Origin: the human T2T-CHM13v2.0 reference genome, Homo sapiens
DNA length: 64,000 nt
Direction: 5' to 3'
Assembly: GCA_009914755.4 (NCBI GenBank)
Contig: CP086569.2
Coordinates: 5,760,001 to 5,824,000 of the forward strand
Shown: in pieces, positions 26,839 to 51,800 of the stretch
Layout of the letters: each line of letters begins with the position of its first letter
How positions within the stretch are numbered: the first letter of the stretch is position 1
Made by a program: the position numbers and the translations under genes
The notes under the pieces: generated by a model
The model's database searches: none
The model's input: the letters and a program-made list of their open reading frames with translations, nothing else
Told to the model about the DNA's origin: nothing

Positions 26839-27222
26839 TGATATGGCTTGGATTTGTGTCCCCGTCCATATCTCATGTCAAATTGTAATCTCCAGTGTTA
26901 GAGGAGGGGCCTGCTGGGAGGTGACCGGATCGTGGGGGCATATTTCCCTCTTGCTATTGTTGTGATAGTAAGTTCTCATGAGATCTGGTTGTTTAAAAGT
27001 GTGTAGCTCCTCCCCCTTTGCTCTCTCTTTCTCCTGGCCCAGCCACGTAGGATGTATCTGCTTCCCCTATGCCTTCTGTCATGACTATAAGTTTACTGAG
27101 GCCTCCCCAGCCATGCTTCCTGTACAACCTGTGGAACTGTGAGCCAATTAAACTTTTTTTCCCTTATAAATTACTTAGTCTCAGGTAGTTCTTTATAGCA
27201 ATGTGAGAATGGACCAATACAG
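26839..27222 (+). mobile_element. MaLR (ERVL-MaLR) solo LTR, MST/THE1-like
   Basis: Starts TGATATGGCTTGGATTTGTGTCCCCGTCCATATCTCATGTCAAATTGTAATC and ends …aattacttagtctcaggtagttctttatagcaatgtgagaatggaccaatacag. Confidence 0.85.
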
Positions 27223-29649: not shown

Positions 29650-30972
29650 ATCCTCAGTATAGAGACAGTAACAAGCAATAGGGAAAAAACTCCCTGTTCA
29701 ATAAATGGTGCTGGAATAACTGGCTAGCCAAATGCTGACGAATAAAATAGGACCCCTACCTTTCAACATTTCAAACAATAACTCAAGATGGATTAAAAAT
29801 TTAAACTTGAGACCTGAAAATATAAAAATCTTAAAAGAAAACTTGTGAAATTCCATTCCAGGCATCAGCCTTGGCAAATAATTTTTGGCTAAGTTCCCAA
29901 AAAACAATCACAACAAAAACAAAATTGACAAGTGGGACCTAAGTAAACTAAATAGCTTCTGAACAGCAAAAGAAACTGCCAATAGAGTAAACAGACTACC
30001 TACAGAATGGGATAAAAAAAAATTGCAAACTATGCATCTGACAAAGGTCTAATATTCAGCATTTATATGGAAATTATACAAATTTTCAAGAAAAAACAAA
30101 CAACCCCTTTAAAAAGTCGGAAAATGGCATGAACAGATATTTTTCAAAATAAGATATACATGTGGCCAACAAGCCTATTAAAAATGCTCAGGATCACTAA
30201 TAATTGCAGAAATGCAAATCAAAAGCACACGGAGATAGCATCTCACACCATTCAGAACAGCCATTATTAAATTAACAAAATATACCAGACGATGGTGAGG
30301 TTGTGGAAAAAAAAGAGCACTTCCACACTGCTTCGGTGGGAATGTAAATTAGATCAGCTGCTGAGGAAAGCAGTTTGAAGATTTCTCAAAGAACTTCCAA
30401 CATTGCCATTCAACCCAGCATTCCCATTACTGGGTATATACACAAAAGAAAGTAAATCATTCTAACAAAAATACACACGCACTTGTGTGTCAACTGCAGC
30501 ATTATTCACAATAGCAAAGACGTGGAATTACCCTACAGGCCCATCAATACTGGACTGGATAAAGAAAATGTGGTACCTATACATCATGAGATGCCACACA
30601 GCTATATAAAAGAAGAAAATTATATCCTTGTCAGCAACATGGATAAGGTTGGAAGTCATTATTCTAAGCAAATTAACACAGGAAAAAAACCCAAATACTG
30701 TACATTCTCACTTACAAGTTGGAGCTAAACTTTGCATACACATGGACATAAAGATGGGTACAATAGACAGTGGGCACTGGGGACTACTAGAGAAGGGAGA
30801 GTTTTAGGGAGGAGAGGGCTGTAAAATTAACTATAGGGTGCAACGCTCACTACCTGGGTAACTGGGCCATTTGTATACCAAACCTCAGCAACATGCAATT
30901 TACTCATGTAACAAACCTGTACATGAACCCCCTGAACATATAATAAAAGTTGAGTAAAATAAATAAATAAAG
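29650..30972 (+). mobile_element. L1 (L1PB/L1MA-like) 3' portion: ORF2 C-terminus + 3'UTR
   Basis: Contains 'ctccctgttcaataaatggtgctggaataactggctagcc' (…[13 protein letters not shown]…), 'aatgcaaatcaaaagcacacggagatagcatctcacacc' and '…caatagcaaagacgtggaa', and ends in the 3'UTR '…aaaataaataaataaag'. Confidence 0.85.
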
Positions 30973-30989: not shown

Positions 30990-31165
30990 CAAATTTTAGC
31001 CAGGTGCATGGCTCAGGTCTGCAACCCCAGAACTTTGGGAGGCTGAGGAAGGTGGATCACTTGAGCTCTGGAGTTTGAGACCACCTGGGCAAGATGGGAA
31101 AATCCCATCTTTACTAAATAACACAAAAATTAGCCATGGGAGGCAGAGTACCCCTGTATATAAAA
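30990..31165 (+). mobile_element. Alu-like monomer fragment (FLAM/old Alu 5' part)
   Basis: agccaggtgcatggctcaggtctgcaaccccagaactttgggaggctgaggaaggtggatcacttgagctctggagtttgagaccacctgggcaagatgg. Confidence 0.55.
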
Positions 31166-31429: not shown

Positions 31430-33662
31430 TGATATGGTTTGGTTGTGTCCCCACCCAAATCTCATATTGAATTGTAACTCCCATAATTCCCACATGTTGT
31501 GGGAGGAACCCTGTCAGAGGTGATTGAATTATGGGGACAGATCTTTTCTGCACTGTTCTTATGATGGTGAATGGTCTCACAAGAATTGATGGTTTTAAAA
31601 ATGGGAGTTTCCCCACACAAGCTCTCTCTTTGCCTGCTGCCATCCATGTAAGACATGATTTACTTCTCCTTGCTTTCCACCATTTGTGAGGCCTCCTGAG
31701 CCACGTGGAACTGCAAGTCCATTAAACCTCTTTCTTTTGTAAATTGCCTGGTATTTGGTATGTCTTTATCAGCAGCACAAAAATGGACTAATACAGTAAA
31801 TTGATACCAGTAGAGTGGGGCATTGCTGAAAATATACCCAAAAATGTGGAAGTGACTTTGGAACTGGGTAATGGGCACAGATCGGGACGGTTTGGAGGGC
31901 TCAGAAGAAGACAGGAAAATGTGGGAAAGCTTGGAACTCCCTAGAGACTTGTTGAATAGCTTTGACCAAAATGCTAATAGTGATATGAACAATAAGGTTC
32001 AGGCTGAGGTGGTCTCAGATAGAAATGAGAAACTTATTGGGAATTGGAACAAAGGTGACTCTTGTTATGTTTTAGCAAAGAGATTGGCAACATTTGCCCC
32101 TGCCCTAGAGATGTGTGGGACTCTAAACTTCAGAGACATGATTTAGGGTAACTGGTGGAAGAAATTTCTAAGCAGCAAAGCTTTCAAGAGGTGACTCAGG
32201 TGCTGTTAAAGGCATTCAATTTTATAAGGGAAGCAGAGGATAAAAGTTCAGAAAATTTGGAGCCTGACAATGCGATAGAAGAGAAAAACCCATTTTCTGA
32301 GGAGAAATTCAAGCGGGCTGCAGAAATTTGCGAAAGTAATGAGGAGCCAAATGTTAATCCCCAAGACAACAGGGAAAATGTCTCCAGGGCATGTCACAGT
32401 TCTTCGTGACAGCCTGTCCCATTACAGGCCTGTAGGCCTAGGAGGAAAAAGTGGTTTCATTGGCTGGGCCCAGGGTCCCCATGCTGTGTGCAGCCTATGG
32501 ACTTGGTACCCTGCATCCCAGCCACTCCAGCCATGGCTGAAAGGGGCCAACATAGAGCTTGGACTGTGGCTTCAGAAGGTGCAAACCCCAAGCCTTGGCA
32601 GCTTCCACCTGGTGTTGAGCCTGTGAGTGCACAGAAGTCAAGAGCTGAGGTTTAGGAACCTCCTTCTAGATTTCAGAAGATGTAAGAAAATGCCTGGATG
32701 AACAGGCTGAAGTTTCCTCTAGAGTTGGGGCTCTCATGGAGAACCTCTGCTAAGGCAGTGCAGAAGGGAAATGTGGGGTCAGATTCCCCACACAGGGTCC
32801 CTACTGTGGCTCCACCTAGTGGAGCTGTGAGCAAAGGGCCACAGTCCTCCAGAACCCAGAATTGTAGATCCACTGACAGCTTGCACAGTGTGGCTGGAAA
32901 AGCTGCATACACTCAACACCAGCCCATGAAAACAGCCAGGAGGGAGGCTGTACCCTGTAAAGCCACAGGGGTGGAGCTGCCCAAGACCATGGGAACCCAC
33001 CTCTTGCATGCAAGACATGGAATCAAAAGAGATAATTTTGGAGCTTTAAGATTTGACTGCCCTGGTGGATTTCAGACTTTTATGGGGCCTGTAGCCCCTT
33101 TGTTTTGGCCAATTTCTCCCGTTTGGAAAGGCTGCATTTACCCAATGCCTGTACCCCCATTGTAGCTAGGAAGTAACTAACCTGGACTGTGGACTTTTGA
33201 GTTAAAGCTGAAATGATTTAAGATTTTGGGAGACTGTTGGGAAGGCATGACTGGTTTTGAAATTTGAGACATGAGATTTGGGAGGCCAGGGGCTGAATGA
33301 TATGGTTTGGCTGTGTCTCCACCCAAATCTCATTTTGAATCGTAACTTCCACAATTCCACCTGTTGTTGGAGAAACCCGGTGGGAGGTGATTGAATTATG
33401 GGAGCAGGTCTTTCCTGCACTGTTCTCATGATAGTGAGTGAGTCTCCTGAGATCTGAAAGTTTTAAAAATAAGAGTTTCCCTGCCAAGCTCTCTCTTTGC
33501 CTGCTGCCATCCATGTAAAACATAACTTACTCCTTGACTTCTGCCATGATTGTGAGGGCACCCCAGCTACATGAAACTGTAAGTTCATTAAACTTCTTTC
33601 TTTTGTAAATTGCCCAGTCTCAAGTACGTCTTTATCAGCAGCATGAAAATGGACTGATATAA
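31430..33662 (+). mobile_element. THE1 (ERVL-MaLR) full-length element: 5' LTR 31430-31795, internal 31796-33297, 3' LTR 33298-33662
   Basis: Both LTRs start TGATATGGTTTGG…CCCACCCAAATCTCAT and end …tctttatcagcagca(c/t)…ggact(a/g)ata. They flank about 1.5 kb of THE1 internal sequence. Flanks are tgcct|…|agcct, a likely 5-bp target-site duplication. Confidence 0.85.
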
Positions 33663-35965: not shown

Positions 35966-37021
35966 ATATCATATAGCTAAAAGCTTCCATAAAGAGTTCA
36001 CAGCAAAACGAAAAAGTAACCGTCCCTATGTGATTGATTTAAAAACAAAAAACAAATTTTTGTATAAATTATGAAAGCTAAATTGTTCTATATTAAATAA
36101 TTCTATAAGATGCTATTCTATAAAACTTGTATTTAGTCTAATGATGTCTTTAAGGAAATTAGTCATTATATTACTTGTAGCCTGATTCATGAGGATTTTC
36201 CATATAAATTTCTTCCTAGTCTTAACATCAATAATATTTGTGCATTTTTCTGAGCCAGTCTCCTGTTTTCATCTGATAGGCCCTATTAACTATGTTTTGG
36301 TTTCTCTAGTATGTGTATGGATTTAATGATATGTATTTTTCATACTAGCTTCATTCTCAGATATGTTTTATATTCTACTATTGTTATTTTTTTCTTTGTC
36401 ATATAATTTAAAATATTTCTCTACTTTCAAATTTTCTTGTAAGTAGCCTTACATTCATGTTGGTGCAGGATGAAAAATAAATATTAGGTGTCAATTGACT
36501 ATTAGACACTTGTTAGGTGTCTCAAAATCAACTGAATTCATAATGTCCAAAACTGAACTTATATCAATTTCTTTGCAATGCATATATAGTACAGGAATAT
36601 CTTATTTTATTGCACTTCACTTTATTGTGCCTTGCGGATATCGTGTTTTTTCTTTTTTACAAATGGGAGGTTTGTAACAATGCTGTGTTGAGCAAGTCTA
36701 TTAGTACTATTTGTTCAATAGCAAGTGTTCACATAGTATCTATGTATCATATTTTTGTTATTCTAACAATATCTCAAAGTTCATTATTATTATTATTATA
36801 CCTGTTATGGTGATTTTTAATCAGCAGTCTTTGATGTTACCATTGTAAGTGTATGGGATGATGAATCACTCCCATATAAGAAAGAAAATGTAATTGATCA
36901 ATTTTGTAGATGTTTTGACTGCTCCAACTACCAGCCATTCCACATCTCTCTGCTTCTCCTTGGGTCTCCCCCTTTACTGAGACATAGTGCTATTAAAACT
37001 GGGCTAGCTAATAACCCTATA

Positions 37022-38534
37022 ATGGCCTCTAAGTGTTCAAGTGAAATGAAGAGAAACAAATCTCTCACTTTAACTCAAAAGCTAGAAATGATGAAGCTTA
37101 GTGAGGAAGTCATGTCTAAAGCCAAAACAGGTTAAAAGCTAGGCCTCTGTGCCAGTTAGTCAAGTTGTGGAGGCAAAGAAAAATTATTTGAAAAAAATTA
37201 AAAATGCTGTTCCAGTGAACACACAAATGATAAACAAGCAAGACACCCTTTTGCTGATATAGAGAAAATTTTAGTGGTCTGGATATGAGATCAAATCACA
37301 TAGTATTTTCTTAAGCTAAAGCCTAATTCAGAGCAAGGCTCAAACTCTCTTCAATTCTCTGACGGCTGACAGAAGTGAGGGAGCTGCAGACAGAAAATTT
37401 GAATCTAGCTGGGGTTGGTTCATGAGGTTTAAGGAAATAAGCCATCTGCATAATATAGAAGTGCAAGGTGAAGTAAATGCTAATGGAGAAGCTGCAGCAA
37501 TTTATCCAGAAGATCTAGCTAAGATAATTGATGAAGGTGTCTACACTAAATAACAGATTTTTAGTGTAGATTAAAAAACCATATATTGGAAGAAAATGTC
37601 ATCAAGGGCTTTCATAGTTAGAGAGAAGTCAATGGTTGTCTTCAAAGCTTCAAAGGACAAGCTGACTTTCTGTTAGGGACTAATGCATTTGGTGGCTAAC
37701 TTGAAGCCAGTGTTCATTAACTATTCTGAAAATCCAAAGGCCCTTACAAATTATGCAAAATGCACTCTGCCTCTGCTCTATAAATGAAACAACACAGCCT
37801 TGATGAGAGCACATCTGTCTTCAGCATGGTTTACTAAATATTTTAAGCTCACTGTTGAGACCTACTGCTCAGGAAAAAAAAAAAATCCAAAATGTTACTG
37901 CTCATTGAAAATGCAGCTAGTCATTTCAGAGCTCTGATGGAGATGTACATGATCATTAATGTCCTTTTGATACTTGCTAACACAACATCCATTCTATAGC
38001 ACATGGCTAAAAGAGTCATTGGGACTTTCAATTCTTATTATTTGATAAATATATTTTCTAATGCTATAGCTACCATAGATAGTGATTTCTCTGATGCATC
38101 TGGGAAAAGTAAATCGAGAACCTTCGGGAAAAAACTTGCCATTAAAGATGCCCTTAAAAATATTTGTAATTCATGAAAGGAGCTTAAATTATTAATATTT
38201 ACAGGAGTTTGAGAGACATTGGTTCCAATTTTCATGGATAACTTTTAGTGGTTCAAGACTTCAGTGGGGGAAGTAATTGCAGATATTGTAGAAATAGCAA
38301 AAATACTATAATTGGAAGTGGAGCCTGAAGATGTGACTGAATTATTACAATCTCATAATGAAAATTGAAAAGATGAGAAGTCATTTCTCATGAATGAGCA
38401 AAGAACATAGTTTTATAAGATGAAATCTACTCCTGGTGAAGATGTCGAGGACTTTGCTGAAATGACAAGAACGGATTCAGATTATTTCATAAATGAAGTT
38501 GATAAACCAGAGACAAGGTTTGAGAGAATTGACT
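37022..38534 (+). pseudogene. Tigger1 transposase (pogo/CENP-B-like) decayed ORF, truncated by the L1 insertion
   Basis: Translation gives MASKCSSEMKRNKSLTLTQKLEMMKLSEE…, close to the Tigger1 transposase N-terminus MASKRSSS…KRKSLTLEQKLEIIKRSEEG. Many stops and frameshifts are present. The C-terminal remnant (…CFKKLPWPTPTF…) resumes at about 47960. Confidence 0.75.
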
Positions 38535-39238
38535 CCAGTTTTTTTTTTTTTTTTTTTTTTTTTTTAAGGTTAAGAGGTATATGCTTGTTGGCCACATGCA
38601 TGTCTTCTTTTGAAAAGTGTCTATGTTCTTTGCCCACTTTTTAATGGGATTTGTTTTCACTTGTAAATTTGTGTAATTTCCTTATAGATGTTGGATATCA
38701 GACCTTTGTCAGATATCCAACAAATGTTTAGCTTGCAAATGTTTTCCCATTCTATATATTGTCTGTTTACCCTGTTGATAGTTTCTTTTGTTGTGCAGAA
38801 GCTCTGCAGTTTAATTAGATCCCAGTTGTCAATTTTATTTTTGTTGCAATTACTTTTGGCTACTTTGTCATAAAATCTTTTCCAGTCCTTATGTTCAGTA
38901 TGTTACCACCTAGGTTGTTGTCCAGAGTTTTTACAGTTATGGGTTTTACATTTAAGTGTTTAATCCATGTAGAATTGATTTTGTATATGGTGTAAAGAAG
39001 GGGTCCAGTTTCAATTCTCTGCATATGGTTAGCCAGTTATCCCAGCACCATTTACTGAATGAAGAGTCCTTTCCCTACTGCTTGTTTTTTGTCGGTTTTG
39101 TCAAAAATTATACGGTTGTAAGCATGTGGCCTTATTTCTGGGCTATCTATTCTGTTCTATTGGTCCATGTGTCCTTTTTTTTTTTTGCACCAGTACCGTG
39201 TTGATTTTGATTACTGTAACCCTGTAGTATAGTTTTGA

Positions 39239-40022
39239 TATGGACAGGAGGGAGGGAAATGCTGAGAAGAGGGCAGTTCCCTGACAAAGGCCCCACCCTC
39301 AAGCCCAGAAACTGCATTCCTAAATGAGAACAGTTATACCTGTTTTCCCACGTGACTGTTGCTTTTTCCAAAACCACCCTGGCACATCATGCCCCCCATC
39401 GTGTACCCATAAAAAACCCGAATTCCACTGGTAGAAGAGTAGAGCAGTGTGGCAGAGGAGAAGAGAAGAGAAGAAGCAACTGAGAGTCAGAGACTACAGA
39501 CGGACGTGGCTTAACTTCAGACAGCATGTCTTTGGAGAGGAGCTCAGCCAGAGCCAGCCGGGCTTCAGGAAATAATCACCTTCCGCATCTTTCCACTTCC
39601 AGCTCCCCTTCCACTGACAGCCACTTTCACTACTTAATAAAACCTCCACATTCACCATCCTTCAAGTCCATGTGACCTGATTCTTCCTGGATGCTGGACA
39701 AGAAACCCGGTACCAAGATGGCAGGGTGTAAGAGGCTTTCACCCTGACTCTTCACTGAGCTGGTTAACACTTAGCCATCTGCAGATGACTAATATTAAAA
39801 GAGCTTTGTTTGTAACACACACCGTCTGGGGCTCCAGAAGTCATGGGCAACCACTAGATGGCCATGGGCTGGTACAGGGTTTGTTCCTGCCAGCTCCTAA
39901 AGGCACTTGCCCCAGCTCCTGCATCAGCTCATCTATGTGCTCCCCCTTCCACAAGGGTTTTGAGCCCAGCCACATCCTGTTGCAAGTCACTTGAGGGGGT
40001 CAAGGAAATGTCCTTTCTCAGT
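39239..40022 (+). mobile_element. Unidentified ERV solo LTR (class-I-like) nested in the L1
   Basis: About 785 bp of GC-richer insert interrupting colinear L1 sequence. It has TATA-like 'cataaaaaacc', then about 200 bp downstream 'cttaataaaacctccacattcacc' as a poly-A signal, then a U5-like tail. Flanks 'tagtttga' / 'cagtttga' may be a target-site duplication. Confidence 0.45.
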
Positions 40023-40639
40023 TTGAAGTCAGGTAGCATGACACTTCTTGCTTTGTTCTCTCTCCTTTGGATTGCCTTGGCTATTTGGGCTAGTTTTAGC
40101 TTCATAAAAATTTTAAAATAGCTTTTTCTAGTTCTTTGAAGAATGTCACTGGTAGTTTGACAGCCGTAGCATTGAACCTGTAAATTGTTTTTGACTGTGT
40201 GGCCATATTAATGACACGAATTCTTCATTCACAAACATAAAAGGGTTTTCTATTTGTTTGTGTCATCTCTGATTTCTTCCAGCAGTGTTTTGTAATTCTC
40301 ATTGTACAGGTCTTTCACTTTCCTGGTTAGCTATATTCATAGGTATTTTATTATTTTTGTGGTACTGGAAATGGAATTGTGTTCCTGATTTTGCTTGTGG
40401 CTTGGCTGTTGTTGGTGTACAGGAGTGCTAGTGTTTTTGTATGTTGATTTTGTGTCCTGAATCTTTGCTGAAGTTGCTTATTAGTGTAAAGAGTTCTGGG
40501 ACCAAGACAATAGTTTTTTTTTATAGATATACAATCATGTCATTGACAATTATGGATAGTTCAACTTCCTCTCGTCCAATTTGGACACGCTTTATTTACT
40601 TTGCCTGCTTGGTCTGGCCAGGACTTCCAATGTTATGTT

Positions 40640-41050
40640 TGATATGGTTTGGATCTGTGTCCTTGACCAAATCTCATGTTGAAATGTAATCCCCAATGCT
40701 GGAGATGGAGCCTCATGGGGGCTATTAGTTCATGGTGGTGGTTTCTCATGATTTAACTCCATCCCCCCTTGGTGCTGTCATTGCAATAGTGAGTTCTCAT
40801 GACATCTAGTTGTTTGAAAGTGTGTGGCACCTCCCTCCTCTCTCTCTTGGCCTTGCTCCTTCCATGCAAGATCCTATGCCTGCTTTGCCTTCTGCCTTGA
40901 GTAAAAGCTCTCTGAGGTCACCCCAGAAGCAGATGCTATCATGATTCCTTTGCAGACTGCAGGACTGTGAGCTAATTAAACATTTTTTTTTTTTGTAAAT
41001 TAACCAATCTCAGGTATTTCTTTATAGGAATGTAAGAATGAACTAATACA
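40640..41050 (+). mobile_element. MaLR solo LTR (MST-like) nested in the L1, perfect 5-bp target-site duplication ATGTT
   Basis: TGATATGGTTTGGATCTGTGTCCTTGACCAAATCTCATGTTGAAATGTAATCCCCAATG…aattaaccaatctcaggtatttctttataggaatgtaagaatgaactaataca, with flanks …tgttatgtt| and |atgttgaat. Confidence 0.85.
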
Positions 41051-41704
41051 ATGTTGAATAGTAATGATGAGAGAGGACATCATTGTCTTTTGCCAGTTTT
41101 CAAGGGCAATTCTTCCAGCATTTGTCCATTCAGTATAATGTTGGCTGTGGGTTTGAAATAGATGACTCTTATTATTTTAAGATGTGTCCCTTCAATACCA
41201 ATTTATTGGGAATTTTTAACATAAAGAGATGTTAAATTTTGTCAAAAGCTTTTTCTGTATCTGTTGAGTTGACCATGTTTTTTTTGTCTTTAGTTCTTTT
41301 TATGTGTTGAATTATGTTTATTTATTTGCATATGTTGAACCAATCTTGCATCACAGTGATAGCCTACTTGATGATGGTGGCTTAGCTTTTTGATGTGCTT
41401 CTTGATTTGATTTGCTAGTATTTTTTGAGGATTTTAGCATCAACGTTCACCAAGAATATTGGCTACAGTTTTCTTTTTTGTTGTTGTGATTCTGCCAGGT
41501 TTTGGTATCAGGTTGTTTCTGGCCTCATAGAATGAGTTAGGGAGGAATCCTTTTTCCTCAATTTTTGGGAATAGTTTCAGTAGAAATAATATCAGCTCTT
41601 CTATATACATCTGATAGAATTTGACTGTGACTGCATCTGGTCCTGGGCTTTTTATTTTTGGTTGGTTATTTATTACTGATTCAATTTCAGAGCTCTTTAT
41701 TGGT

Positions 41705-43998
41705 GTACTAGTTCATTCTCATGCTGCTATGAAGAAATACCTGAGATGTGTACTTTATAAAGAAAAGTGGCTTAATTGACTCACAGTTCTGCATGGCTGG
41801 GGAGGCCACAGGAAACTTAAAGTCATGGCAAAAGGCACCTCTTCACAGGGTGGCAGGGGAGATAATGAATGAGGGCTGAAAGAAGGGGAAAGCACCTTAT
41901 AAAACTATCAGATCTCATGAGAACTTACTATAATGAGAATAGCATTGGGGAAACCAACCATGTGAATCAATTACCTCTCACCAGGCCCCTCCCACAACAC
42001 ATGGAGATTATGGGAATTATAATTCAACATGAGATTTGGGTGGGGACACAGCTAAACCATATCATTCTACCCTGACCTATCCCAAATCTCATGTCCTCAC
42101 ATTTCAAAACACAATCATGCTCTTCCAACAGTCTCCCAAAGTCTTAATTTATTCCAGCATTAACTCAAAATTCCAAGTCCATAGCCTCATCTGAGGTAAG
42201 GCAAGTCGATTCTGCCTATGAGCCTGTAAAATCAAAAGCAAGTTAGTTACTTCCTAGATACAATGGAAGTTCAGGCATTGGGTAACTACATATGCTTCAA
42301 ATGAGAGAAATTGGCCAAAACAAAGGAGCTACAGTCCCCACTCAAGTCAGAAATCCAATACGGCAGTCATTAAACCTTAAAGTTTGTTTGACCCCATGTC
42401 ACATCCAGGACATGGTGATGCAAGAGGTGGGCTCCCACAACCTTGGGCAGCTTTGCTCTTGTGGCTTTGCAAGTTATAGCCCTCTGTACTGGCTGCATTC
42501 ACAGGCCAGCATTGAGAGTCTGTGGCTTTTCCAGGTGTATGGCAGAAGCTGTCAGTGGATCTACCATTCTAGGGTGTATAGGATGCTGGCCTTCTTCTCA
42601 CAGCTCTTCTAAGCAGTGCCCCAGTGGGGACTGTGTGTAGGGTCTCTGACCCAACATTTGCCTTCTGCATCACCCTAGCAGAGGTTCTCCATGAGGGCTG
42701 TGCCCCTGCAGTGGATTTCTTCCTGGACATCCAAGCATTTCCATACATCCTCTGAAATCTAGGTGGAGGTTCCCAAAGCTCAATCCTTGTCTTCTGTGCA
42801 CTTGCAGGATAAATACCAAATGGAAGTTGACAAGGCTTATGGCTTACACCCTGTAAAGCAATGGCCTGAGATGAACCTTGGCCCCTTTTAGCCATGTCTG
42901 GAGCTGAAGCAACTGGGACACAAGGCACCATGTATCAAGGCAGTATGGAGCAGGTGGGCCCTGGGCCCAGCCCAGGAAACCATTTTTTCCTCCTAGGACT
43001 CTGGGCCTGTGATGGGAGAGCCTGCTGCAAAGGTCTCTGACATGCACTGGAGACATTTTCCCCATTGTTTGGGGATTAACATTTGGCTCCTTGTTACTTA
43101 TGCAAATTTCTGCAGTGAGTTTAAATTTCTCCTGAGAAAATAGGTTTTTCTTTTCTATCACACTATCAGCCTGCAAATTTTCCCAAACTTTTATGCTCTG
43201 TTTCCTCTGGAATGCTTTGCTGCTTAGAAATTTCTTCCACCAGATACCCTAACTCATCTCTCTCAAGTTCAAACTTCCACATATCACTAGGACACAGGCA
43301 AAATGCCATCAGTCTCTTTGCACAGCAAGAGCGACTTTTACTCCAGTTCCTAAGAAGTTCCTCATCTCCATCTGAGACCACCTCAGCCTGAACATCATTG
43401 TTCATATCACTGTCAGCATTTTGGTCAAAGCCGTTCAACAGGTGTCTATGAAGTTCCAAACTTTCACATCTTCCTGTCTTCTGAGTTCTCCAACTCTTTA
43501 GGAAGTTCCAAACTTTACCACATTTTCTTGTCTTCTTCTGAGACCTCCAAACTGTTCCAACCTCTGCCTGTTACCCAGTTCTAATGTTGCTTCCACATTT
43601 TGGGGTATCTTTATAGCAGCACCCCACTGTCTGCAGTACCAATTTACTGTATTATTTCATTCTCATGTTGCTGTGAAGAAATACAGAGACTAAGTGATTT
43701 ATAAAGAAAAGAGGTTTAATTGACTCACAGCTCTGCATGGCTGGGGAGGCCTCAGGAAATTTACAATCATGGTGGAAGGCACCTCTTCACAGGGTGGCAG
43801 GAAAGAGAATGAGCGAGAGCTGAGTGAAGGAGGAAGACCCCTCAGATTTCATGAGAACTTACTATCATGAAAATAGCATGGGGGAAATCACCTACATGAT
43901 TAAATTACCTCCTACCAGGTCCCTCCCATGACACATGGGGATTATGGGAACTACAATTTGACATGAGATTTGGGTGAGGACATAGCCTAACCATATCA
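41705..43998 (-). mobile_element. THE1 (ERVL-MaLR) full-length element, antisense: LTR 41705-42065, internal 42066-43647, LTR 43648-43998; nested in the L1
   Basis: Both LTRs are reverse-complement THE1 (tgtattatttcattctcatgttgctgtgaagaaatac…catgagatttgggtg(g/a)ggaca(c/t)agc(t/c)aaaccatatca). Internal ORFs 42569..43459(-) are homologous to the + copy's 31871..32409 ORFs. Flanks attgg / attag are a likely target-site duplication splitting L1 'gctattggtctattcaggg'. Confidence 0.85.
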
Positions 43999-44384
43999 AT
44001 TAGTATGTTCAGGGATTCAATTTCTTCCTGGTTCAGTCTTCGGAGGGTGTATGTGTCCAGGAATGTATTCACTTCTTCTAGATATTTTAGTTTCTGTGCA
44101 TAGAGGTGTTCATACTAGTCTCTGATAGTTATTTGTATTTCTGTCATGTTACTAGTGGCATCCCCTTTGTTGTTTCTAATTGTTTTTATCTGGATCTTCT
44201 TTCTTTTCTTTTTTATTAGTTTAACTGGTGACCTATCCATCTTATTAATTTTCTTCAAAAAAGCAACTCCTGCATTTGGTTATCTTTTTCATGTCTTAAT
44301 CTTGTTAAGTTCAGCTCTGCTTTTGCTTATTTCTTGTCTTCTGCAAACTTTGGGATTGGTTTGCTCTTGCTTATCTAGTTCTTT

Positions 44385-44829
44385 TGTAGCGGGACGAGAT
44401 GCAGACAAAATCCCTCAGACACCGAGTTAAAGAAGGAAGGGCTTTATTCGGCCAGAAGCGTTGGCAAGACTAACATCTCAAAAACCGAGCTCCCCGAGTG
44501 AGCAATTCCTGTCCCTTTTAAGGGCTTACAACTCTAAGGGGGTCCGCATGAGAGGGTCGTGATTGATTGAGCAAGCAGTGGGTACGTGACTGGGGGCTGC
44601 ATGCACTGGTACTTAGAATGGAACAGAACAGGACAGGGATTTTCACAATGCTTTTCCATCCACTGTCTGAAATCTATAGATAACACAAGCAGTTAGGTCA
44701 GGGGTTGATTTTTAACTATCAGGCCCAGGGTGTGGTGCTGGGCTATCTGCTTGTGGATTCCATTTCTGCATTTTAGTTTTTACTTCTTCTTCCTTTAGAG
44801 GCAGAAATTGGGCATAAGACCATATGAAG
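44385..44829 (-). mobile_element. Unidentified GC-rich LTR-like insertion (probable solo ERV LTR, antisense) nested in the L1
   Basis: It interrupts colinear L1 antisense sequence. The reverse complement has an R/U5-like '…gccgaataaagcccttccttctttaactcggtgtctgagggattttgtctgc'. Family is unknown. Confidence 0.4.
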
Positions 44830-47800
44830 GGTGGTCTCCTCCCTTACTTTTTGTTGTGATGCTAGGTTGCTAAATCAAGATCTTTCTAACTTTTGATGTG
44901 AGCATTTAGTGCTATGAATTTCTCTCTGAACACTACCTTAGCTGCATCTTAGAGATTCTGCTTTGTTGTATATTAGCTCTCATTAGTTCCAAAGAACTTC
45001 TTGATTTCTGCCTTAATTTCATTATTTACCAAAAAGTCATTCAGGAGCGGGTTGTTTAGATTCTACTCAATTGCATGATTTTCAGTTATTTTTGTAGTCT
45101 TGGATTCTATTTTTATGATTTTGATTCTTTTGAATTTGCTGAGAATTATTTTATTTTGGATTGTGTGGTCAATTTTAGTGTAGGTACCTTGTGAAGATGA
45201 GAAGAATGTATATTCTACTGTTGTTCAGTGGACAGTTTTGTAGATGTCTATCAGGTTTATTTGGTCCAGTATTGAGGTCAGGTCCTGTATATGTTTGTTA
45301 ATTTTCTGTCATGATGATCTGTCTAATACTGTCAGTGGGGTATTGAAGTCTCTCACTATTCTTGTGTGGGAGGCTAAGTCTCTTTAAAGGTCTCTAAGAA
45401 CTTCCTTTATGAATCTGTGTGCTCCTGGGTTAGGTGCATGTATATTAGGGACAATTAGGTCTTCTTGTTGAATTGAACTCTTTACCATTATGTAATTCCT
45501 TTCTTTGTCCTTTTTGATTTTTGTTGGTTTCAAGTCTGTTTTGTCTGAAATTAGGATTGCAACTCCTGGGTTTTTTTCCATTTGCTTCATAGATTTTTCT
45601 TCGTCCCTTTATTTTGAGCTTATGTTTGTCACTGCATGTGAAATGGGTCTTGTGAAGACAGCATAGTATTGGGTTCTCTTTCTTTATCCAGCTTGACACT
45701 CTGTACCTTTTATTTGGGGCTTTTAGCCCATTTACATTCAAGATTATTATTGATATATGTTTATTTGATCATGTTACAATGTTATTAGGTGATTGTTATG
45801 CAGACTTGTTTATGTGGTTGCTTTAAATCACTGGTTTGTGTACTTAAGTGTGTATTTCAGTGACTGGTAACAATCTTTCTTTCTCATATTTAGTGTTTCT
45901 TTCAGGAACACTTGTAAGGTCTAGTGGTAACTAATATCCTCAGCATTTGTTTGTCTGAAAATAATCTAATTACTCCTTCACTTATGAATCTTAGTTTGGC
46001 CAGATATAAAATTCTTGGTAGGAATTTCTTTTCTATAAGAATGTTGAATATAGGACTCTAAGCTCTTCTGGCTTGTAGGTTTTCTGCTTTGAGGTCTGCT
46101 GTTAGTCTAATGGGCTTCCCTTGGTAGGTGACTTGCCCTTTTCTCTAGCTGCCTGTAACATTATTTTTTATTTTTGACCCTGAAGAATATGATGGTTATG
46201 TATCTTAGGGACAATCTTCGTGTGAAGTATCTTACAGGGGTTCTCTGCATTTCTTGAATTTAACTATTTACCTTACTAGCTAATCTGGGGAAGTACTCAT
46301 GGATGATATTCTGAAATATGTTTTACTAGTTACTTTCATTCTCCCCTTCTCTTTCAGGGATGCCAATGGGTCATAAATTCAATCTCTTAATTCCATGTTT
46401 CTTGGAGATTTTGTTTGTTTCTTGTCATTTTTTAAATTCTTGTCTGACTGTCTTATTTCACAAAGCCAATCCTCAGGTTTGGAGATTCTTTTCAAAGCTT
46501 GGTCTATTTTTCTATTAATATGTGTGATTGCATTATGAAATTCTTGTAGTGTGTTTTTCAGCTTGATCAGTTCAGTTACTTTTCTATACCAGCTACTTTG
46601 TTTGTCAGCTGCTGTATCATTTTACTGTGATTCTTAGCTTCCTTAGGTTGGGTTTCAACATATTCCTAGATCTTGATCTTCATTCCTATGCACATTCTGA
46701 ATGCTATTTCTGTCATATCAGCCAACTCAGCCTGGTTAAGAATTCTTGCTGGAGAAATAGTATGGACATTTAAAGGAAAGAATGCATTCTGGCTTTTTGA
46801 GTTGTCAGAGTTCTTGTGCTTGTTCTTTCTCATCTGTGTGGGCTGGTATTCCTTCAATCTTTGAGGTTATTGTCTTTGGGAATTTTTTCCTTTTATCCTA
46901 TTTGATATCCTTTAGGGTTTGATTATGATATAACGTAGGTTTAGTCTCCTGGCTTCATTTCTTGAAGGTTTTAGGGGAGCAAGGCTCAGCTCAGGACTCC
47001 TTGACTGCATCCTCTAACTCTGGGAGAATGGCATCAAGCCCTGGCTTTGTTCTCTGTCTTCTCTAGGTTAGGAACCTGAGTGCTAGAGAGGCCAATGTGC
47101 TTTCAGACTGATGGTCATGACAGTCCAATGTGTGGTGCCAGCCAAAGTACTTTATATGGCAGTGGTAGTGGGATCCATCCTTGTCACACATGCCAGCAGT
47201 AGCAGCAGTGGGAACATGGTGGGGTGCATATTCGTTGGCTGTGGCAGGGTGTTAGCAGGTGTTTAGGTGCCAACCTCCAAGCAGATGTTCACAGCAGCAG
47301 TGGTGGCAGCACAGCTAGAGTGAATGCCAGGCTAGTGTCATGGGCAAGGCCAGCAGACTTAGGGGTGCTCAGGTTGGATGGGCTTCTTCTCATGGGCAAG
47401 ACTGGCATGCAGAGTTTAGGTTCCACAGTTCCCCTAGGACTAACATCTCCTATGGAGTCAAGTTGAGCCTAGGGAGATGGCCATCCCTGACCATGCTTCT
47501 CTACAGACACTCACACCAAACCCTCTGGACTCTACACTGGCTGGAATTCTGCCCCTACCATAACTCTTAGCAGCTCTCTCTGTCAACTCAAGTGTCCATG
47601 GTGGTTGAGGAGTCTCCTTCTGCCAGTATTCCAGAGACCCGTGGTGAGAACAGGTTGTTGATTGCTTGTTCAACTCACCCTTTTCCTCAGGGTTCTTAGG
47701 GGCTAGGAACAAGCCCTGATGCACAGTAGACCCGTGCAAGGTTCCTAGCTTCCTCCCCTTTCAGCCCAGCATCTGTGTTTTTGCTCCATCCACTGTCAAT

Positions 47801-48452
47801 GCCTTCTCTGTGAAGATCTACTGAGAGTGTGCCAGTCTTCCTGAAGTCCCATTTTTTTGGTGGGAGATGTTTATCCTGGCTGCATCTAATCAGCCATCTT
47901 ACCTCCTTCTCTGATTCCAGTTTTAAATGAAATTCTACTACGGGTAAAATTCAGTGAAAAAGCATCACTTGTTATGGAGAAAACTTTTATGAAAGGGAGA
48001 GTCAATTGATGCAGCAAATTTTAGTGTTGTTTTAAGAAATTGCCATGGCCAACCCCAACTTTCAGTAATCACAACCCAGATCAGTCAGCAGCCAACAATA
48101 TCAAGGCAAGACCCTCAATCGGCAAAAAGATTCTGACTCACTGATGGCTCCAATGATTGTTAGCATTTTTCAGCAATAAAATATTTTTAATAAAGGTATA
48201 TGCATTTTTTTGGACATAATGCTATTTCACACTTAATATAGTATAGTGCGAACAGAACTTTTATATTACTACCAAAATTTGAATGACTTGTTTTATGGAG
48301 GTGCTCTGGACCCAAACTATTTCTGAGGTATACCTGTTTTTCTTATCTCAATGCACTGCACCTTCCATGGGAAAAATTATAAACTATGAGATCATCCTTG
48401 ACCACCTCCCACTTCCTCTTTCTTCCTCTCCAATATACCACTAATTCTGTAG

Positions 48453-48864
<412 letters not shown>

Positions 48865-51800
48865 TTACTACATTATTCTTATGAGTGATGTAATGCATCT
48901 AAGCATCTACCCTTTTCCCTTATCAATCTATGCTCTCCTCTGCATCCAGAAAGAGTGTTACAAATACAAATGTTATCAAGTCACTCAGTTGTTTGAAAAC
49001 TTGGAATGACTTCCCAATTCTCTTAGGAAAACAAAAGAGCTCGACATTAGTCTGTAGATACTATAAGTTTTAGCCCTTACATCTCCTTGTACGACTCTCT
49101 CTTTTGTTCTCTGTGCTCCTGTCATGCTGGGTTTCTTTCAGTTTTTTTTTTTTTTTAAATATATGCCCCAGGGCCTTCACATTTGCTTTTTTCCCTACCT
49201 ATAAATCTCCTAAGCAGTCCCTCTCTCACTACCATACAACCCTACCCTACCTAATCATTAATTCCTCATTGAAATCTTTCTTAACTTTTCTGACTAGATT
49301 AGATCCCTTTATTGTACAATTTCATATTAATATGTACTTCTCCTTCATGGCACATAACACAGATTATGTTAGTTTTCTTTGTGTAATTATTTGGTTAATA
49401 TTTATCTCCCCAACTATCTGCTATGGGTCATGAAACCAGAGGCAGCGACTATTTTTCCCACTATTTCTACCCAATTACCTACTTCAGTGACTGGCATGTA
49501 GTACATCTTCAGTAAATCTAAATAAATTAATAAAAGAAACAAAGAGAGTGAAAGAAGTAATACACACACACACATAAAAAGAGAAAGAGAATTCTGTACG
49601 TGTTCTTGTATTTGTGTAACATATTTAATATTGATTGTCCCTGTCCTAGGATTTATGTGATAACTTATTTGAAAAAGACAAGATTTTAGAGTTTTTCCAG
49701 AGACACAATGCTGAGAGCAATGCTGTCCAGTGGAACATCCTGCAATGATGGCACTGTTCTTTATTGGTACTGACAATAGAGTAGCTACTACTTACATGTG
49801 GTTGTTAAGCAACTGAAATGCAGCCAGTGTGACTGAGAAAGTAAATTTTTAATCTTATTTTATTTTGACTATTTTCTATTTAAGTAAATACATGTGTCTG
49901 TGTTGCATGGAGCGGATATAGAGATCAATTTTAAGCAGGATAAATTCATAAAGAAGCCTAGTATGTCCCTGGTAGAAGTTAAATTATCTTCCAAGCCCTC
50001 AGATTTTTCACCTTCCACTAATTAAACAAAATATTATGAAATCCTAAAGTTTCCCAGAGTTGGCCATTGGATTTCAGAGGAAGGGTAAGGTGAAAGCCAA
50101 GTGATTGAGGATAGGTACTTTCCACTGCTTTCTACTCCTACACTTTCAAAAAAGAGCAGAATTTTGTGTATTTGGTAAATTAATTTTTCACTTAACTTAT
50201 TTGCATAAAGATCTGTACCACTTGAAAATTTTGAAAACCACTACCTTGTATAACAGATTGTACCCATATTCAGAAAGCAGTACACGATATGTTTCCAGTA
50301 TGTGGCTGTACATATTTATAGGAAGGGAAAGTTGCTATTCATGCAGAATGATAGGAGAGGCACAAGATGGTCTCTCTACCTCTGTTTTTTCTCTCTCACC
50401 CACCTACCATAGTACAAATGAATATATGTACATAGAATATGAAAGATGTACAAAACAGGTCTAGAAATTATCTTGTCAAAACTTGTCCCATAACAATGAA
50501 TTCCTAACAGAATACCTGACAAAAGCAAATTAACTGTTTTAGAGCAGAGACTGGAATAGAGAAGTCAGTGTAGTTGAGTAACCCAATTTTCCTAAGAGAA
50601 AGATAAGAAGTTATTTTAAAATTATTATTATTATTTTGTTTCTCTTTCCTTCATTCCTCTTGTTCTCGGCTTTCCACTTAGCTCTTTAGAAACACAATTA
50701 TAATCTTTACCTTCCCTTTACCAGACACTCCCTATACAGCAAGCTTATTTATATGCTTATTTAGAAGCTCCAGAGCCAGAACTCTCTCCCAGCAGGAGAT
50801 TTCCTTGAGACAACAGTCAATTTACAACCTAAATTATGCTCACGATGAAACTCTCTCTCACCTGGAAAGCATCTTGCGACATCAGCCACTTTACAACCTC
50901 ACTCTGCCCATAATGGCACCAGCTCAACCACCTGGTAGATAACTCCAAGTCATGTAACTCCCACACCTGCTCACTCTCTTCTCTGCATGCCTTTTAGTGA
51001 AAGCTGCCCTTTAAAACTCCTTTTTTCTGCCCCTAAAGTAAAGCAATTCCCTTAAAGGCAGGAGCCTGTACCTCTTCCCCTGTGCTAAGCTTTGAAACAG
51101 TCACTTCCTTTATACCAGACCTTGCTCTTGTTAATTGAACTCTGCAAGTGGTGAGTGACTGAACTTGCATTTCAGTTACAGCAGTAATGACTGTAATGTT
51201 TTATAAATACATACCAATAGTGGACCAAGTTGCCAGAGACAATTGGAGTTAAGGAGCTAAGGCAGAATAAGTTGGTTGTGGCAGATAGAGGCCAAACATT
51301 CAAAGCAAAAAAAAAAAAAAAAAAAACTAAAGCAGTAACTGCAGTAACTCATGCTGAAACACAGAGGAGCAATTAGAAAGGCCACAGCTGACAACCAGGC
51401 AAACAAATTAGTGGTTAGCAGGTAGTCAGGAAGCTGAGATTCATTACAATAAAGACTAAAAGATCAGATAACAGTCAGTTTTACTAGAGAGGTGAGTGCT
51501 TCTGAAAATCATGCTGGCTATTGCCCTACTGTTAAAGAATGTAACTAATGTAACTGACCTCCTTTTATAACCTTCTTAGTAGTGGTTCTCATTTTTTAAG
51601 AAGTCTGTGTTTTCCCTATGGCCTTGAGTATGCTTGCTGTCTTAACAGTCATTCAACTTTTTCCTGAGCATTTACAGTAAATGGAAAAGGAAATGAAGAA
51701 GATTGAACACCTGTTACTTGCCTGAAAGTGTAGCAGAAGAGAGCTAACCAGATAGCTAAATAAACACTCTCATGGGATATTAATCAACAATTTGATATAT

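What the first reader, a model, noticed from the sequence alone, without database searches (positions are those of the whole stretch)
36592..48336. Four-level nested transposon stack: Tigger1 split by L1, L1 carrying THE1, MST LTR and two unknown LTRs
Tigger1 is split by a 9.4-kb L1 with a 12-bp target-site duplication (gactccagtttt). That L1 is interrupted by a full-length THE1 (41705-43998), an MST-like solo LTR with a perfect ATGTT duplication (40640-41050), and two unidentified LTR-like inserts (39239-40022, 44385-44829). This gives an internal relative chronology: Tigger1 first, then L1, then the MaLR/ERV insertions. It can date the L1 subfamily between a eutherian DNA transposon and primate MaLRs. 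Roughly 12 kb of sequence is transposon-within-transposon. The repeated LTR hits inside one L1 body are notable.
Basis: seen in the sequence. Interest (0 to 1): 0.55.

Follow-up and report, generated by a model that had tools for sequence, protein, structure and literature searches.

The report
Ordinary nested transposon pile in primate DNA
This 11.7-kb stretch is a dead Tigger1 DNA transposon split by an L1 retrotransposon that was later hit by four LTR-element insertions; this kind of junk-DNA layering is common and well described in primate genomes, so it is real but ordinary.

Summary
Two corrections apply. The second unknown LTR ends at 44846, not 44829. The nesting is three layers deep, not four.

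Tigger1 (36592-38542 plus 47925-48336, + strand) is split by a minus-strand L1 (38543-47912). The L1 has a 12-bp target-site duplication (11/12 identical), a 23-nt poly(A) tail and a TTTT/AA endonuclease site.

The L1 carries four clean insertions:
- an unnamed ERV1-type solo LTR (39236-40020, TSD GTTT);
- a MaLR solo LTR (40640-41050, TSD ATGTT);
- a full-length THE1-type MaLR (41704-43998, TSD ATTGG/ATTAG, LTR K2P 0.21);
- a HERV-E LTR2-type solo LTR (44385-44846, TSD CTTT).

Human TIGD1 aligns colinearly across the Tigger1 halves, and L1 ORF1p and ORF2p align colinearly across all the L1 pieces. Deleting each insert plus one TSD copy restores one reading frame through all four L1 junctions. 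Uninterrupted Tigger1 and L1 copies from unrelated contigs abut exactly at every junction.

One unreported oddity: the L1 is 5'-complete but lacks ORF2 codons ~1093-1275 and the 3'UTR, although the tail and TSD are intact.

Nested-insertion chronology is an established genome-wide method. Interest is low.

The parts
36592..38542 (+). Tigger1 DNA transposon, left part (5' TIR CAGG..., transposase residues 1-511). Positions 38531-38542 (GACTCCAGTTTT) are the left copy of the L1 target-site duplication. TA lies at 36590-36591.
   Evidence: tblastn of human TIGD1 (P0005) gives aa 1-95, 47-292 and 301-511 at 37022-38536. Pfam finds CENP-B_N, HTH_Tnp_Tc5 and DDE_1 in that order. Termini were read.
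38543..38565 (-). Poly(A) tail of the L1, seen as 23 T on the + strand. The T run 38539-38565 includes the 4 T's of the TSD.
38566..39235 (-). L1 segment a: ORF2p ~884-1092, then 13 unassigned nt (ACCTCTTAACCTT in sense) directly before the tail. ORF2 1093-1275 and the 3'UTR are absent.
   Evidence: It is colinear with the L1 at window 14656-15296 and with L009 4684-5266.
39236..40020 (+). LTR_A: 785-bp solo LTR-like insert with TG...CA termini. A TATA-like ATAAAAA lies at 39409 and AATAAA at 39636, both on the + strand. The 4-bp TSD GTTT lies at 39232-39235 and 40021-40024. It is ERV1-type by TSD length. The family is not named.
   Evidence: No other copy was found in the window or in 77 fetched loci.
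40021..40639 (-). L1 segment b: ORF2p ~669-887.
   Evidence: It is colinear with L009 5264-5864.
40640..41050 (+). MaLR (MST/THE1-like) solo LTR, 411 bp, TGATATGG...AATACA, with a perfect 5-bp TSD ATGTT (40635-40639 and 41051-41055).
   Evidence: It is 69% identical to the solo LTR at 26839-27221 and 76-82% identical to the ends of the THE1 LTRs.
41051..41703 (-). L1 segment c: ORF2p ~452-672 (reverse-transcriptase region).
   Evidence: It is colinear with L009 5860-6517.
41704..43998 (-). Full-length THE1-type MaLR, 2295 bp. The 3' LTR is 41704-42064, the internal part 42065-43647 and the 5' LTR 43648-43998. The TSD is ATTGG (41699-41703) / ATTAG (43999-44003).
   Evidence: LTR pair. MAFFT gives 82% identity and K2P 0.206. 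It is 71-73% identical over its full length to a second MaLR at 31430-33655. Junction shown.
43999..44384 (-). L1 segment d: ORF2p ~322-450.
   Evidence: It is colinear with L009 6513-6896.
44385..44846 (-). LTR_B: 462-bp solo LTR of a HERV-E (LTR2-type) endogenous retrovirus. The sense strand is the minus strand (TAAGGG...GCTACA). In the LTR's own numbering, a TATA-like motif is at position 326 and AATAAA at position 399 (window 44443-44448). The 4-bp TSD CTTT lies at 44381-44384 and 44847-44850.
   Evidence: In 72 HSPs against 71 unrelated contigs, the homology starts (26 HSPs) and ends (49 HSPs) exactly at these ends. Many related copies are followed by TGGTTCCCTGACCGGGAA, a tRNA-Glu primer-binding site, or preceded by a polypurine tract. 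The consensus is 462 bp and the window copy lies at K2P 0.093 from it. The published LTR2 consensus is 463 bp with its poly(A) signal at 399-435 (PMC4379568).
44847..47912 (-). L1 segment e: ORF2p 1-305 (45777-44898), ORF1p 1-337 (46833-45843) and a 1079-bp 5'UTR (46834-47912). The sense strand starts AGAGAAGGAGGTAAGATGGCTGATTAG.
   Evidence: Window 45114-46833 matches another L1 at 56625-58293. The 5'UTR end is shared with a copy in L071 that stops within ~10 nt of the same point.
47913..48336 (+). Tigger1, right part (transposase residues 510-591, 3' TIR ...CCTG). Positions 47913-47924 (GATTCCAGTTTT) are the right copy of the L1 TSD.
   Evidence: TIGD1 aa 510-544 and 558-591 align at 47913-48154. 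The uninterrupted Tigger1 in L068 spans the junction.

Best explanation
The region is a fossil record of six independent insertions into one spot of a catarrhine-type primate genome. None has any evident present function.

1. A ~2.36-kb Tigger1 (pogo/Tc1-mariner-type) DNA transposon integrated by cut-and-paste.
2. An L1 integrated into the 3' part of the Tigger1 transposase gene, at codon ~510. It used target-primed reverse transcription: the L1 endonuclease nicked at TTTT/AAAT, the T's primed on the poly(A) tail, and staggered second-strand cleavage produced a 12-bp duplication. The copy reached the L1 5' end but lacks the last ~0.55 kb of ORF2 and the 3'UTR.
3. to 6. Four LTR retroelements then integrated independently into the L1 body by retroviral integrase, each making its own short duplication. 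Two are MaLRs (5 bp): one still has both LTRs, the other collapsed to a solo LTR by LTR-LTR recombination. Two are class I ERVs (4 bp), both solo LTRs, one of them HERV-E LTR2-type.

Shown: the order Tigger1 before L1 before the LTR elements, the boundaries, the duplications and the colinearity. Inferred: the mechanisms, from the textbook signatures of each element class. Inferred: the absolute ages.
For: **Tigger1.** The two halves are colinear on human TIGD1, aa 1-511 and 510-591. The conceptual translation carries CENP-B_N, HTH_Tnp_Tc5 and DDE_1 in that order. The best named hits are TIGD1 orthologues and the 'putative transposase' Q13537. An uninterrupted Tigger1 in contig L068 spans the break, and both window halves overlap on it by the 12-nt duplication.

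**L1.** The ORF2p reference was validated as identical in coordinates to PDB 8UW3_A. ORF1p 1-337 and ORF2p 1-1092 lie in strict order on the minus strand. Removing the four inserts plus one TSD copy each gives a single-frame HSP for ORF2p 307-885 across all four junctions. L1 copies in the window (14160-15296) and in L009 abut or overlap at each junction by exactly the TSD length. The poly(A) tail, the 12-bp TSD and the TTTT/AAAT empty-site sequence are.

**Inserts.** Termini and TSDs are. THE1 LTR pair K2P is 0.206. The HERV-E assignment of LTR_B rests plus PMC4379568.

**Relative ages.** LTR2 0.093 and THE1 ~0.10 per LTR are both lower than Tigger1 at ~0.15 per copy.
Against: - The L1 TSD has one mismatch, and its T's merge with the tail, so its exact length is 12 or 13 bp.
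- The Tigger1 flanks read TA...TT rather than TA...TA.
- The L1 lacks its 3' ~1.1 kb, and the 13 nt before the tail could not be assigned. So 'one simple L1 insertion' needs either an internal deletion or template jump, or a prematurely polyadenylated source RNA.
- L1 subfamily, MaLR subfamilies and LTR_A could not be named because no repeat library was available.
- No L1-specific divergence could be computed, so the middle layer is dated only by nesting.
Confidence: 0.95

Rival explanations
1. The L1 material is not one element. It would be two or more separate L1 fragments, or a rearranged mosaic, that happen to lie between LTR elements, so the 'nesting' would be apparent only.
For: The L1 body is in five pieces. 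Its 3' part is missing. ORF2p identity varies from 31% to 61% between pieces.
Against: All pieces share one strand and follow strict consensus order with no gaps or overlaps beyond the TSDs. After excision, one reading frame runs through all four junctions. Uninterrupted L1s abut at each junction. A single TSD brackets the whole 9.37 kb and restores the Tigger1 frame.
Confidence: 0.02
2. The L1 copy derives from an L1 RNA that was prematurely polyadenylated inside ORF2. Such an RNA could not encode complete ORF2p and would have been retrotransposed in trans. The missing 3' end would then not be a later or internal deletion.
For: The L1 body runs from ORF2 codon ~1092 through 13 nt straight into a 23-nt poly(A) tail followed by the TSD. 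The 13 nt cannot be matched to L1 3' termini above chance.
Against: No AATAAA or ATTAAA lies within 30 nt upstream of the tail (sequence). By eye, the last ~20 nt weakly resemble the L1 3' terminus (...CATGTACCC.AGAACTTAAAG). That would fit an internal deletion or a reverse-transcriptase template jump at a CATATG/CACATG microhomology. Trans-mobilisation of L1 RNA is rare (established knowledge).
Confidence: 0.3
3. The cluster, or one of its LTRs (THE1 or HERV-E LTR2, both known to act as promoters elsewhere), has been co-opted as a regulatory element. It would then be maintained by selection rather than being neutral debris.
For: LTR2 and THE1 LTRs are documented alternative promoters at other loci (PMC4379568). 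LTR_B retains its TATA-like and AATAAA motifs.
Against: All layers show neutral-type decay: 199 stops in one L1 frame, LTR divergences of 9-20% and 12 of 40 LTR_B changes at CpG. There are no Rfam hits in the window. Nothing in the sequence indicates constraint.
Confidence: 0.03

Closest known systems
Nested TE clusters used for interruption chronology (TCF defragmentation, Giordano et al. 2007, PMC1914374; TinT, used for MaLRs in PMC10735291)
   Same: The logic and the type of object are the same. The published example figure already shows an L1 interrupted by Tigger1, which is interrupted by an L1PA8, which is interrupted by Alus. The principle that an insert is younger than its host is the basis of both methods.
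   Different: Nothing of substance differs. This is one more instance, with four LTR-class inserts in a single L1.
Tigger1 (pogo-like DNA transposon; source of TIGD1)
   Same: It has the CENP-B_N, HTH_Tnp_Tc5 and DDE_1 architecture. It is colinear with TIGD1 over its full length at 53-62% amino-acid identity. It has CAGG...CCTG termini and a reconstructed length of 2363 bp.
   Different: It is a decayed copy with many stops and frameshifts. The 3' flanking dinucleotide is TT instead of TA.
Primate L1 (LINE-1)
   Same: ORF1, ORF2 (EN and RT) and a poly(A) tail are present. The endonuclease target is TTTT/AA and the TSD is 12 bp. From memory, the 5' start (GGAGGTAAGATGGCTGATTAG) resembles the canonical GGAGGAGCCAAGATGGCCGAATAG.
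   Different: It lacks ORF2 residues ~1093-1275 and the 3'UTR. The subfamily is not determined: 50-61% amino-acid identity to L1HS ORF2p in EN/RT, versus 79-82% for a younger L1 in the same window.
THE1 / MST (ERVL-MaLR) elements
   Same: The full-length element is 2.3 kb with ~350-bp LTRs, TGATATGG...AATACA termini and 5-bp TSDs. A solo LTR is also present.
   Different: The THE1 versus MST label rests on remembered consensus features (THE1-type CCCATAATCCCCA... versus MST-type GTTGGAGGTGGGGCCT). It was not tested against a library.
HERV-E LTR2 (Dfam DF0000449, 463 bp)
   Same: The insert is 462 bp, with AATAAA at position 399 and a TATA-like motif at 326. These fall inside the published R/U5 (399-435) and U3/R (298-337) windows. 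Related copies carry a tRNA-Glu primer-binding site. The TSD is 4 bp and the element is a solo LTR, as in most HERV-E loci.
   Different: The window copy is more diverged (K2P 0.093) than the other sampled copies (median 0.029). It was not compared directly with the Dfam consensus, so the LTR2 versus LTR2B/2C assignment rests on length and on the best-matching group.

Membership tests
Tigger1 / pogo-type DNA transposon | Transposase with an N-terminal CENP-B-type HTH, a Tc5 HTH and a DDE_1 catalytic domain, in that order | tested here: met
   Pfam: CENP-B_N 3e-10 (residues 13-60), HTH_Tnp_Tc5 2e-4 at 21.7 bits, just under the 22.2-bit cutoff (83-142), DDE_1 1e-19 (230-393).
Tigger1 / pogo-type DNA transposon | The two halves join into one consensus-colinear element | tested here: met
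   TIGD1 aa 1-511 on the left and 510-591 on the right. The uninterrupted copy in L068 spans the junction with a 12-nt overlap.
Tigger1 / pogo-type DNA transposon | Terminal inverted repeats CAGG...CCTG flanked by a TA duplication | tested here: inconclusive
   CAGG at 36592 and CCTG at 48333-48336. The flanks are TA on the left but TT on the right.
LINE-1 | ORF1p followed by ORF2p (endonuclease, reverse transcriptase) on one strand, colinear with the reference | tested here: met
   ORF1p 1-337 and ORF2p 1-1092 lie in order on the minus strand. The reference was validated against PDB 8UW3_A.
LINE-1 | TPRT hallmarks: 3' poly(A), variable-length TSD, TTTT/AA-like nick site | tested here: met
   23-nt tail, 12-bp TSD (11/12), empty site ...CAGTTTT|AAATGA.
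LINE-1 | Complete 3' end (ORF2 C-terminal domain and 3'UTR) | tested here: not met
   Alignment to ORF2p stops at residue 1092. Other L1 copies continue past this point, while this one goes into the tail after 13 nt. This concerns completeness of the copy, not family membership.
ERVL-MaLR (THE1 / MST) | LTR-internal-LTR of ~2.3 kb with ~350-bp LTRs, TG...CA termini and a 5-bp TSD | tested here: met
   361-bp and 351-bp LTRs with a 1583-bp internal part. TSD ATTGG/ATTAG. LTR identity 82%. The solo LTR at 40640-41050 has a perfect ATGTT TSD.
ERVL-MaLR (THE1 / MST) | Subfamily assignment (THE1A-D, MSTA-D) by match to curated consensus | not testable with these tools
   No repeat library was available. 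Only homology to other MaLR copies in the window could be shown.
HERV-E LTR2 | LTR of ~463 bp with the U3/R boundary at 298-337 and the poly(A) signal at 399-435 (PMC4379568) | tested here: met
   462 bp. TTAAAAGG at 326 and AATAAA at 399, in both the window copy and a 30-copy consensus.
HERV-E LTR2 | Proviruses of the family use a tRNA-Glu primer-binding site | tested here: met
   About 20 related copies are followed by TTTCT-TGGTTCCCTGACCGGGAA. The match to the 3' end of tRNA-Glu is from established knowledge of the tRNA sequence and was not computed here.
HERV-E LTR2 | Direct match to the Dfam LTR2 consensus rather than LTR2B or LTR2C | not testable with these tools
The best group of copies is 88-91% identical, and other groups are ~87% and ~82%.
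Class I ERV solo LTR (LTR_A, 39236-40020) | TG...CA termini, 4-bp TSD, TATA and poly(A) signals on one strand, multiple dispersed copies | tested here: inconclusive
   Termini, a perfect GTTT TSD, ATAAAAA at 39409 and AATAAA at 39636 are present. No second copy was found in the window, in 241 kb of human-derived contigs, or in the collection scans.

The most novel reading that the evidence does not exclude
The L1 layer is a bona fide TPRT insertion of an L1 RNA that ended inside ORF2, at about codon 1092, and received its poly(A) there. Such a transcript cannot make functional ORF2p, so it would have been mobilised in trans. That would make it a fossil example of retrotransposition of a prematurely polyadenylated, 5'-complete L1 RNA, rather than an ordinary L1 with an internal deletion.
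Probability: 0.25. Interest if true: 0.2.

Novelty: already known. Interest (0 to 1): 0.07.

Why it matters
It matters very little beyond annotation.

The locus is a clean worked example of nested-insertion chronology: Tigger1, then an old primate L1, then MaLR and ERV1 LTRs including HERV-E. The family order it yields was already established genome-wide by interruption analysis (PMC1914374, PMC10735291).

Its practical value is as a positive control. Every junction could be verified to the base without a repeat library, which shows that the first-stage reader can recognise TE boundaries and TSDs reliably.

The only mildly unusual feature is the 5'-complete but 3'-deficient L1 with an intact tail and TSD.

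Tried and rejected
1. **Rfam scan** of the whole window found nothing.
I replaced it with a hand-stitched Tigger1 translation and tblastn with reference proteins.
3. **Assigning the 13 nt before the L1 tail** to an L1 3' terminus failed. Local alignment against six L1 3' regions scored no better than shuffled queries (one search used wrong coordinates and is void). The deletion versus premature-polyadenylation question stays open.
4. **Naming LTR_A** failed. There is no other copy in the window, none in 71 human-derived metagenome contigs and none in viral contigs. Two genome-contig scans returned nothing or only 19-26-nt chance matches in bacterial MAGs.
5. **The LTR_B motif in viral contigs** gave no hit. 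The metagenome scan succeeded.
6. **My first guess for LTR_B, from memory, was a MER41-type LTR.** I rejected it in favour of HERV-E LTR2 on the tRNA-Glu primer-binding site, the 462-bp length and the signal positions.
7. **Dating the L1 layer** by pairwise K2P to other L1s (0.31) was rejected as uninformative, because the compared copies are probably different subfamilies.
8. **My first Tigger1 reconstruction** dropped one T of the TSD. It was corrected to 38531-38542.

Full report
**What the window is.** The sequence is AT-rich (GC 0.29-0.48), repeat-dense primate-type DNA. It contains Alu, L1, MaLR and ERV sequences throughout. No Rfam family reaches threshold anywhere in it.

**Outer layer: Tigger1.**
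- The element starts with CAGG at 36592, preceded by TA. It ends with CCTG at 48336, followed by TT.
- A frame-stitched translation carries CENP-B_N, HTH_Tnp_Tc5 and DDE_1 in that order.
- A database search with that translation returns TIGD1 orthologues and the human 'putative transposase' Q13537 as best hits (E down to 2e-187).
- tblastn of human TIGD1 (P0005, 591 aa) against the window places residues 1-511 at 37022-38536 and residues 510-591 at 47913-48154. There are no other hits in the window.
- By luck, metagenome contig L068 (host contamination) holds an uninterrupted Tigger1. The window's left half ends, and its right half begins, on the same 12 nt of that copy: reference TTACTCCAATTTT, window GACTCCAGTTTT and GATTCCAGTTTT.
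- With one duplicate removed, the element is 2363 bp and the transposase frame reads through as IDSSFK*NSTTGKI. TIGD1 reads IDSNFERSSTVGKM at that point.

**Middle layer: L1.**
- Between the two 12-mers lie 23 T's (38543-38565) and 9347 bp whose minus strand is an L1.
- As a coordinate reference I used an L1HS ORF2p sequence written from memory. I first checked it against the PDB: it aligns 1-1275 to 1-1275 of 8UW3_A with about two mismatches visible in the printed part of the alignment.
- tblastn gives ORF1p 1-337 at 46833-45843.
- ORF2p then follows in strict order. Residues 1-305 lie at 45777-44898, 322-450 at 44384-44007 and 452-672 at 41703-41044. Residues ~669-887 lie at ~40645-40019 and 884-1092 at 39210-38578.
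- I removed four blocks: 39236-40024, 40640-41055, 41704-44003 and 44385-44850. The remaining 5376 bp give a single HSP in one frame for ORF2p 307-885. It crosses all four junctions.
- At the nucleotide level, the L1 at window 14160-15296 is contiguous across the first junction. The L1 in contig L009 is contiguous across all four. The window pieces overlap on it by 4, 5, 5 and 4 nt, exactly the duplications.
- The empty target reads ...CAGTTTT|AAATGA, the classical TTTT/AA L1 endonuclease site.
- The sense 5' end (AGAGAAGGAGGTAAGATGGCTGATTAG...) resembles, from memory, the canonical L1 5' start. A related copy in L071 ends within ~10 nt of the same point. The copy is therefore 5'-complete, with a 1079-bp 5'UTR.

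- The L1 body stops at ORF2p residue ~1092.
- Other L1s read ...AAGCATATGAAAAAATGCTCA... at that point. This copy reads ...AAGCATAT-ACCTCTTAACCTT-A(23)-TSD.
- About 0.55 kb of ORF2 and the whole 3'UTR are missing, although the tail and the TSD are intact.
- The 13 nt could not be assigned to an L1 3' terminus above chance.
- Either an internal deletion or reverse-transcriptase template jump kept only the extreme 3' end, or the source RNA was polyadenylated prematurely. I could not decide between these.

**Inner layer: four sister inserts.**
1. Insert 39236-40020 (+) is 785 bp with TG...CA termini and a perfect GTTT duplication. It has a TATA-like box at 39409 and AATAAA at 39636. The 4-bp duplication points to a class I ERV. 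No second copy was found anywhere I could look, so the family is unnamed.
2. Insert 40640-41050 (+) is a MaLR solo LTR (TGATATGG...AATACA) with a perfect ATGTT duplication. It is related to the THE1 LTRs and to a solo LTR at 26839-27221.
3. Insert 41704-43998 (-) is a 2295-bp MaLR with LTRs of 361 and 351 bp and a duplication of ATTGG/ATTAG. It is homologous over its length to a second full-length MaLR at 31430-33655.
   - The two LTRs are 82% identical, K2P 0.206.
   - At an assumed 2.2e-9 substitutions per site per year, that is roughly 45-50 My. This agrees with the simian-specific age of THE1 (PMC10735291).
4. Insert 44385-44846 (sense on the minus strand) is 462 bp with a perfect CTTT duplication.
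   - A 25-nt motif from it found 71 metagenome contigs, mostly human skin or oral samples, that is, host DNA.
   - In 72 HSPs, homology to the window copy starts (26 HSPs) and ends (49 HSPs) exactly at these coordinates.
   - About 20 copies are followed by TGGTTCCCTGACCGGGAA, the complement of the tRNA-Glu 3' end. Many are preceded by a polypurine tract.
   - A 30-copy consensus is 462 bp, with a TATA-like motif at 326 and AATAAA at 399. The window copy lies at K2P 0.093 from it.
   - The published LTR2 consensus is 463 bp, with U3/R at 298-337 and the poly(A) signal at 399-435. HERV-E entered after the New World/Old World monkey split (PMC4379568).
- This 'unknown LTR' is therefore a HERV-E LTR2-type solo LTR.

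**Depth and chronology.**
- Nothing is inserted into THE1 or the solo LTRs, so the stack has three TE levels, not four.
- Nesting fixes the order as Tigger1, then L1, then each of the four LTR elements. The order among those four is not fixed by nesting.
- The divergence figures that could be computed increase outward as predicted: 0.093 for LTR2, ~0.10 per THE1 LTR and ~0.15 per Tigger1 copy (0.30 pairwise).
- The L1 could not be dated by divergence, because the only available comparators are probably other subfamilies.

**Is the LTR clustering remarkable?**
- Four LTR-class insertions in 5.4 kb of L1 is above the genome average.
- The window as a whole is LTR-rich, with at least four further LTR-class elements at ~26.2, 26.8, 31.4-33.7 and beyond 59.9 kb.
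- My rough estimate, from general knowledge of copy numbers rather than a tool result, is that a handful or more of such L1s are expected genome-wide.

**Comparison with what is known.** Nested TE clusters and their use for relative dating are textbook material. The example figure of the genome-wide defragmentation study shows a Tigger1 interrupted by an L1, itself interrupted by Alus (PMC1914374). The same principle (TinT) has already ordered all primate MaLRs (PMC10735291). Each component here passes the membership features I could test. The subfamily names need a repeat library.

**Verdict.** The finding is real, accurately described and correctly interpreted. It is ordinary. Novelty: already known. 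Interest: 0.07.

Noticed in passing
window 38566-38600 (minus strand): The nested L1 is 5'-complete but ends at ORF2p residue ~1092. After 13 unassignable nt (ACCTCTTAACCTT) it runs into the poly(A) tail and TSD. The ORF2 C-terminal ~180 codons and the 3'UTR are missing.
   Followed up: partly
window 31430-33655 (+): A second full-length MaLR (THE1/MST-like, ~2.2 kb), 71-73% identical to the nested THE1. It follows an old L1 3' end and an Alu-like fragment at ~31000-31130.
   Followed up: no
window 26178-26418 and 26839-27221: Tandem 24/66-bp repeats carrying CTGATTGG motifs, which from memory are typical of LTR12/HERV9 LTRs. Next to them is a solo MaLR LTR that is 69% identical to the nested MST-like LTR.
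   Followed up: no
window ~59900-64000 (+): A C-rich region (GC skew -0.24 to -0.42) that looks like the internal part of a gammaretrovirus-like ERV. A gag zinc knuckle, CYKCQKSGHQAKEC, is readable at 61441-61482. A 44-bp tandem repeat lies at 60217-60338.
   Followed up: no
window 14160-16075 (+) and other L1 hits: A younger L1PA-like 3' fragment (ORF2p 712-1275 at 79-82% amino-acid identity) with an intact 3'UTR and tail. At least eight further decayed L1 fragments lie across the window, including 5194-9028, 29664-30950 and 56625-59178.
   Followed up: partly
window 733-1345 and 48540-48870: Two tandem Alu copies (TRF period 319, 87% match). A minus-strand Alu with a 42-T run lies just downstream of the Tigger1 3' end.
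   Followed up: no
loci L001-L071 (metagenome contigs): A 25-nt HERV-E LTR motif retrieved 71 contigs, mostly from human skin or oral 'metagenomes'. These are host-DNA contamination. They include proviral HERV-E fragments, an L1 (L009) and a Tigger1 (L068). A divergent subgroup (~82% identity; L004, L007, L017, L035, L046, L054, L056, L058, L071) is followed by a different sequence, TTGGGAGAGGCCAATGTGGG, instead of the tRNA-Glu primer-binding site.
   Followed up: partly
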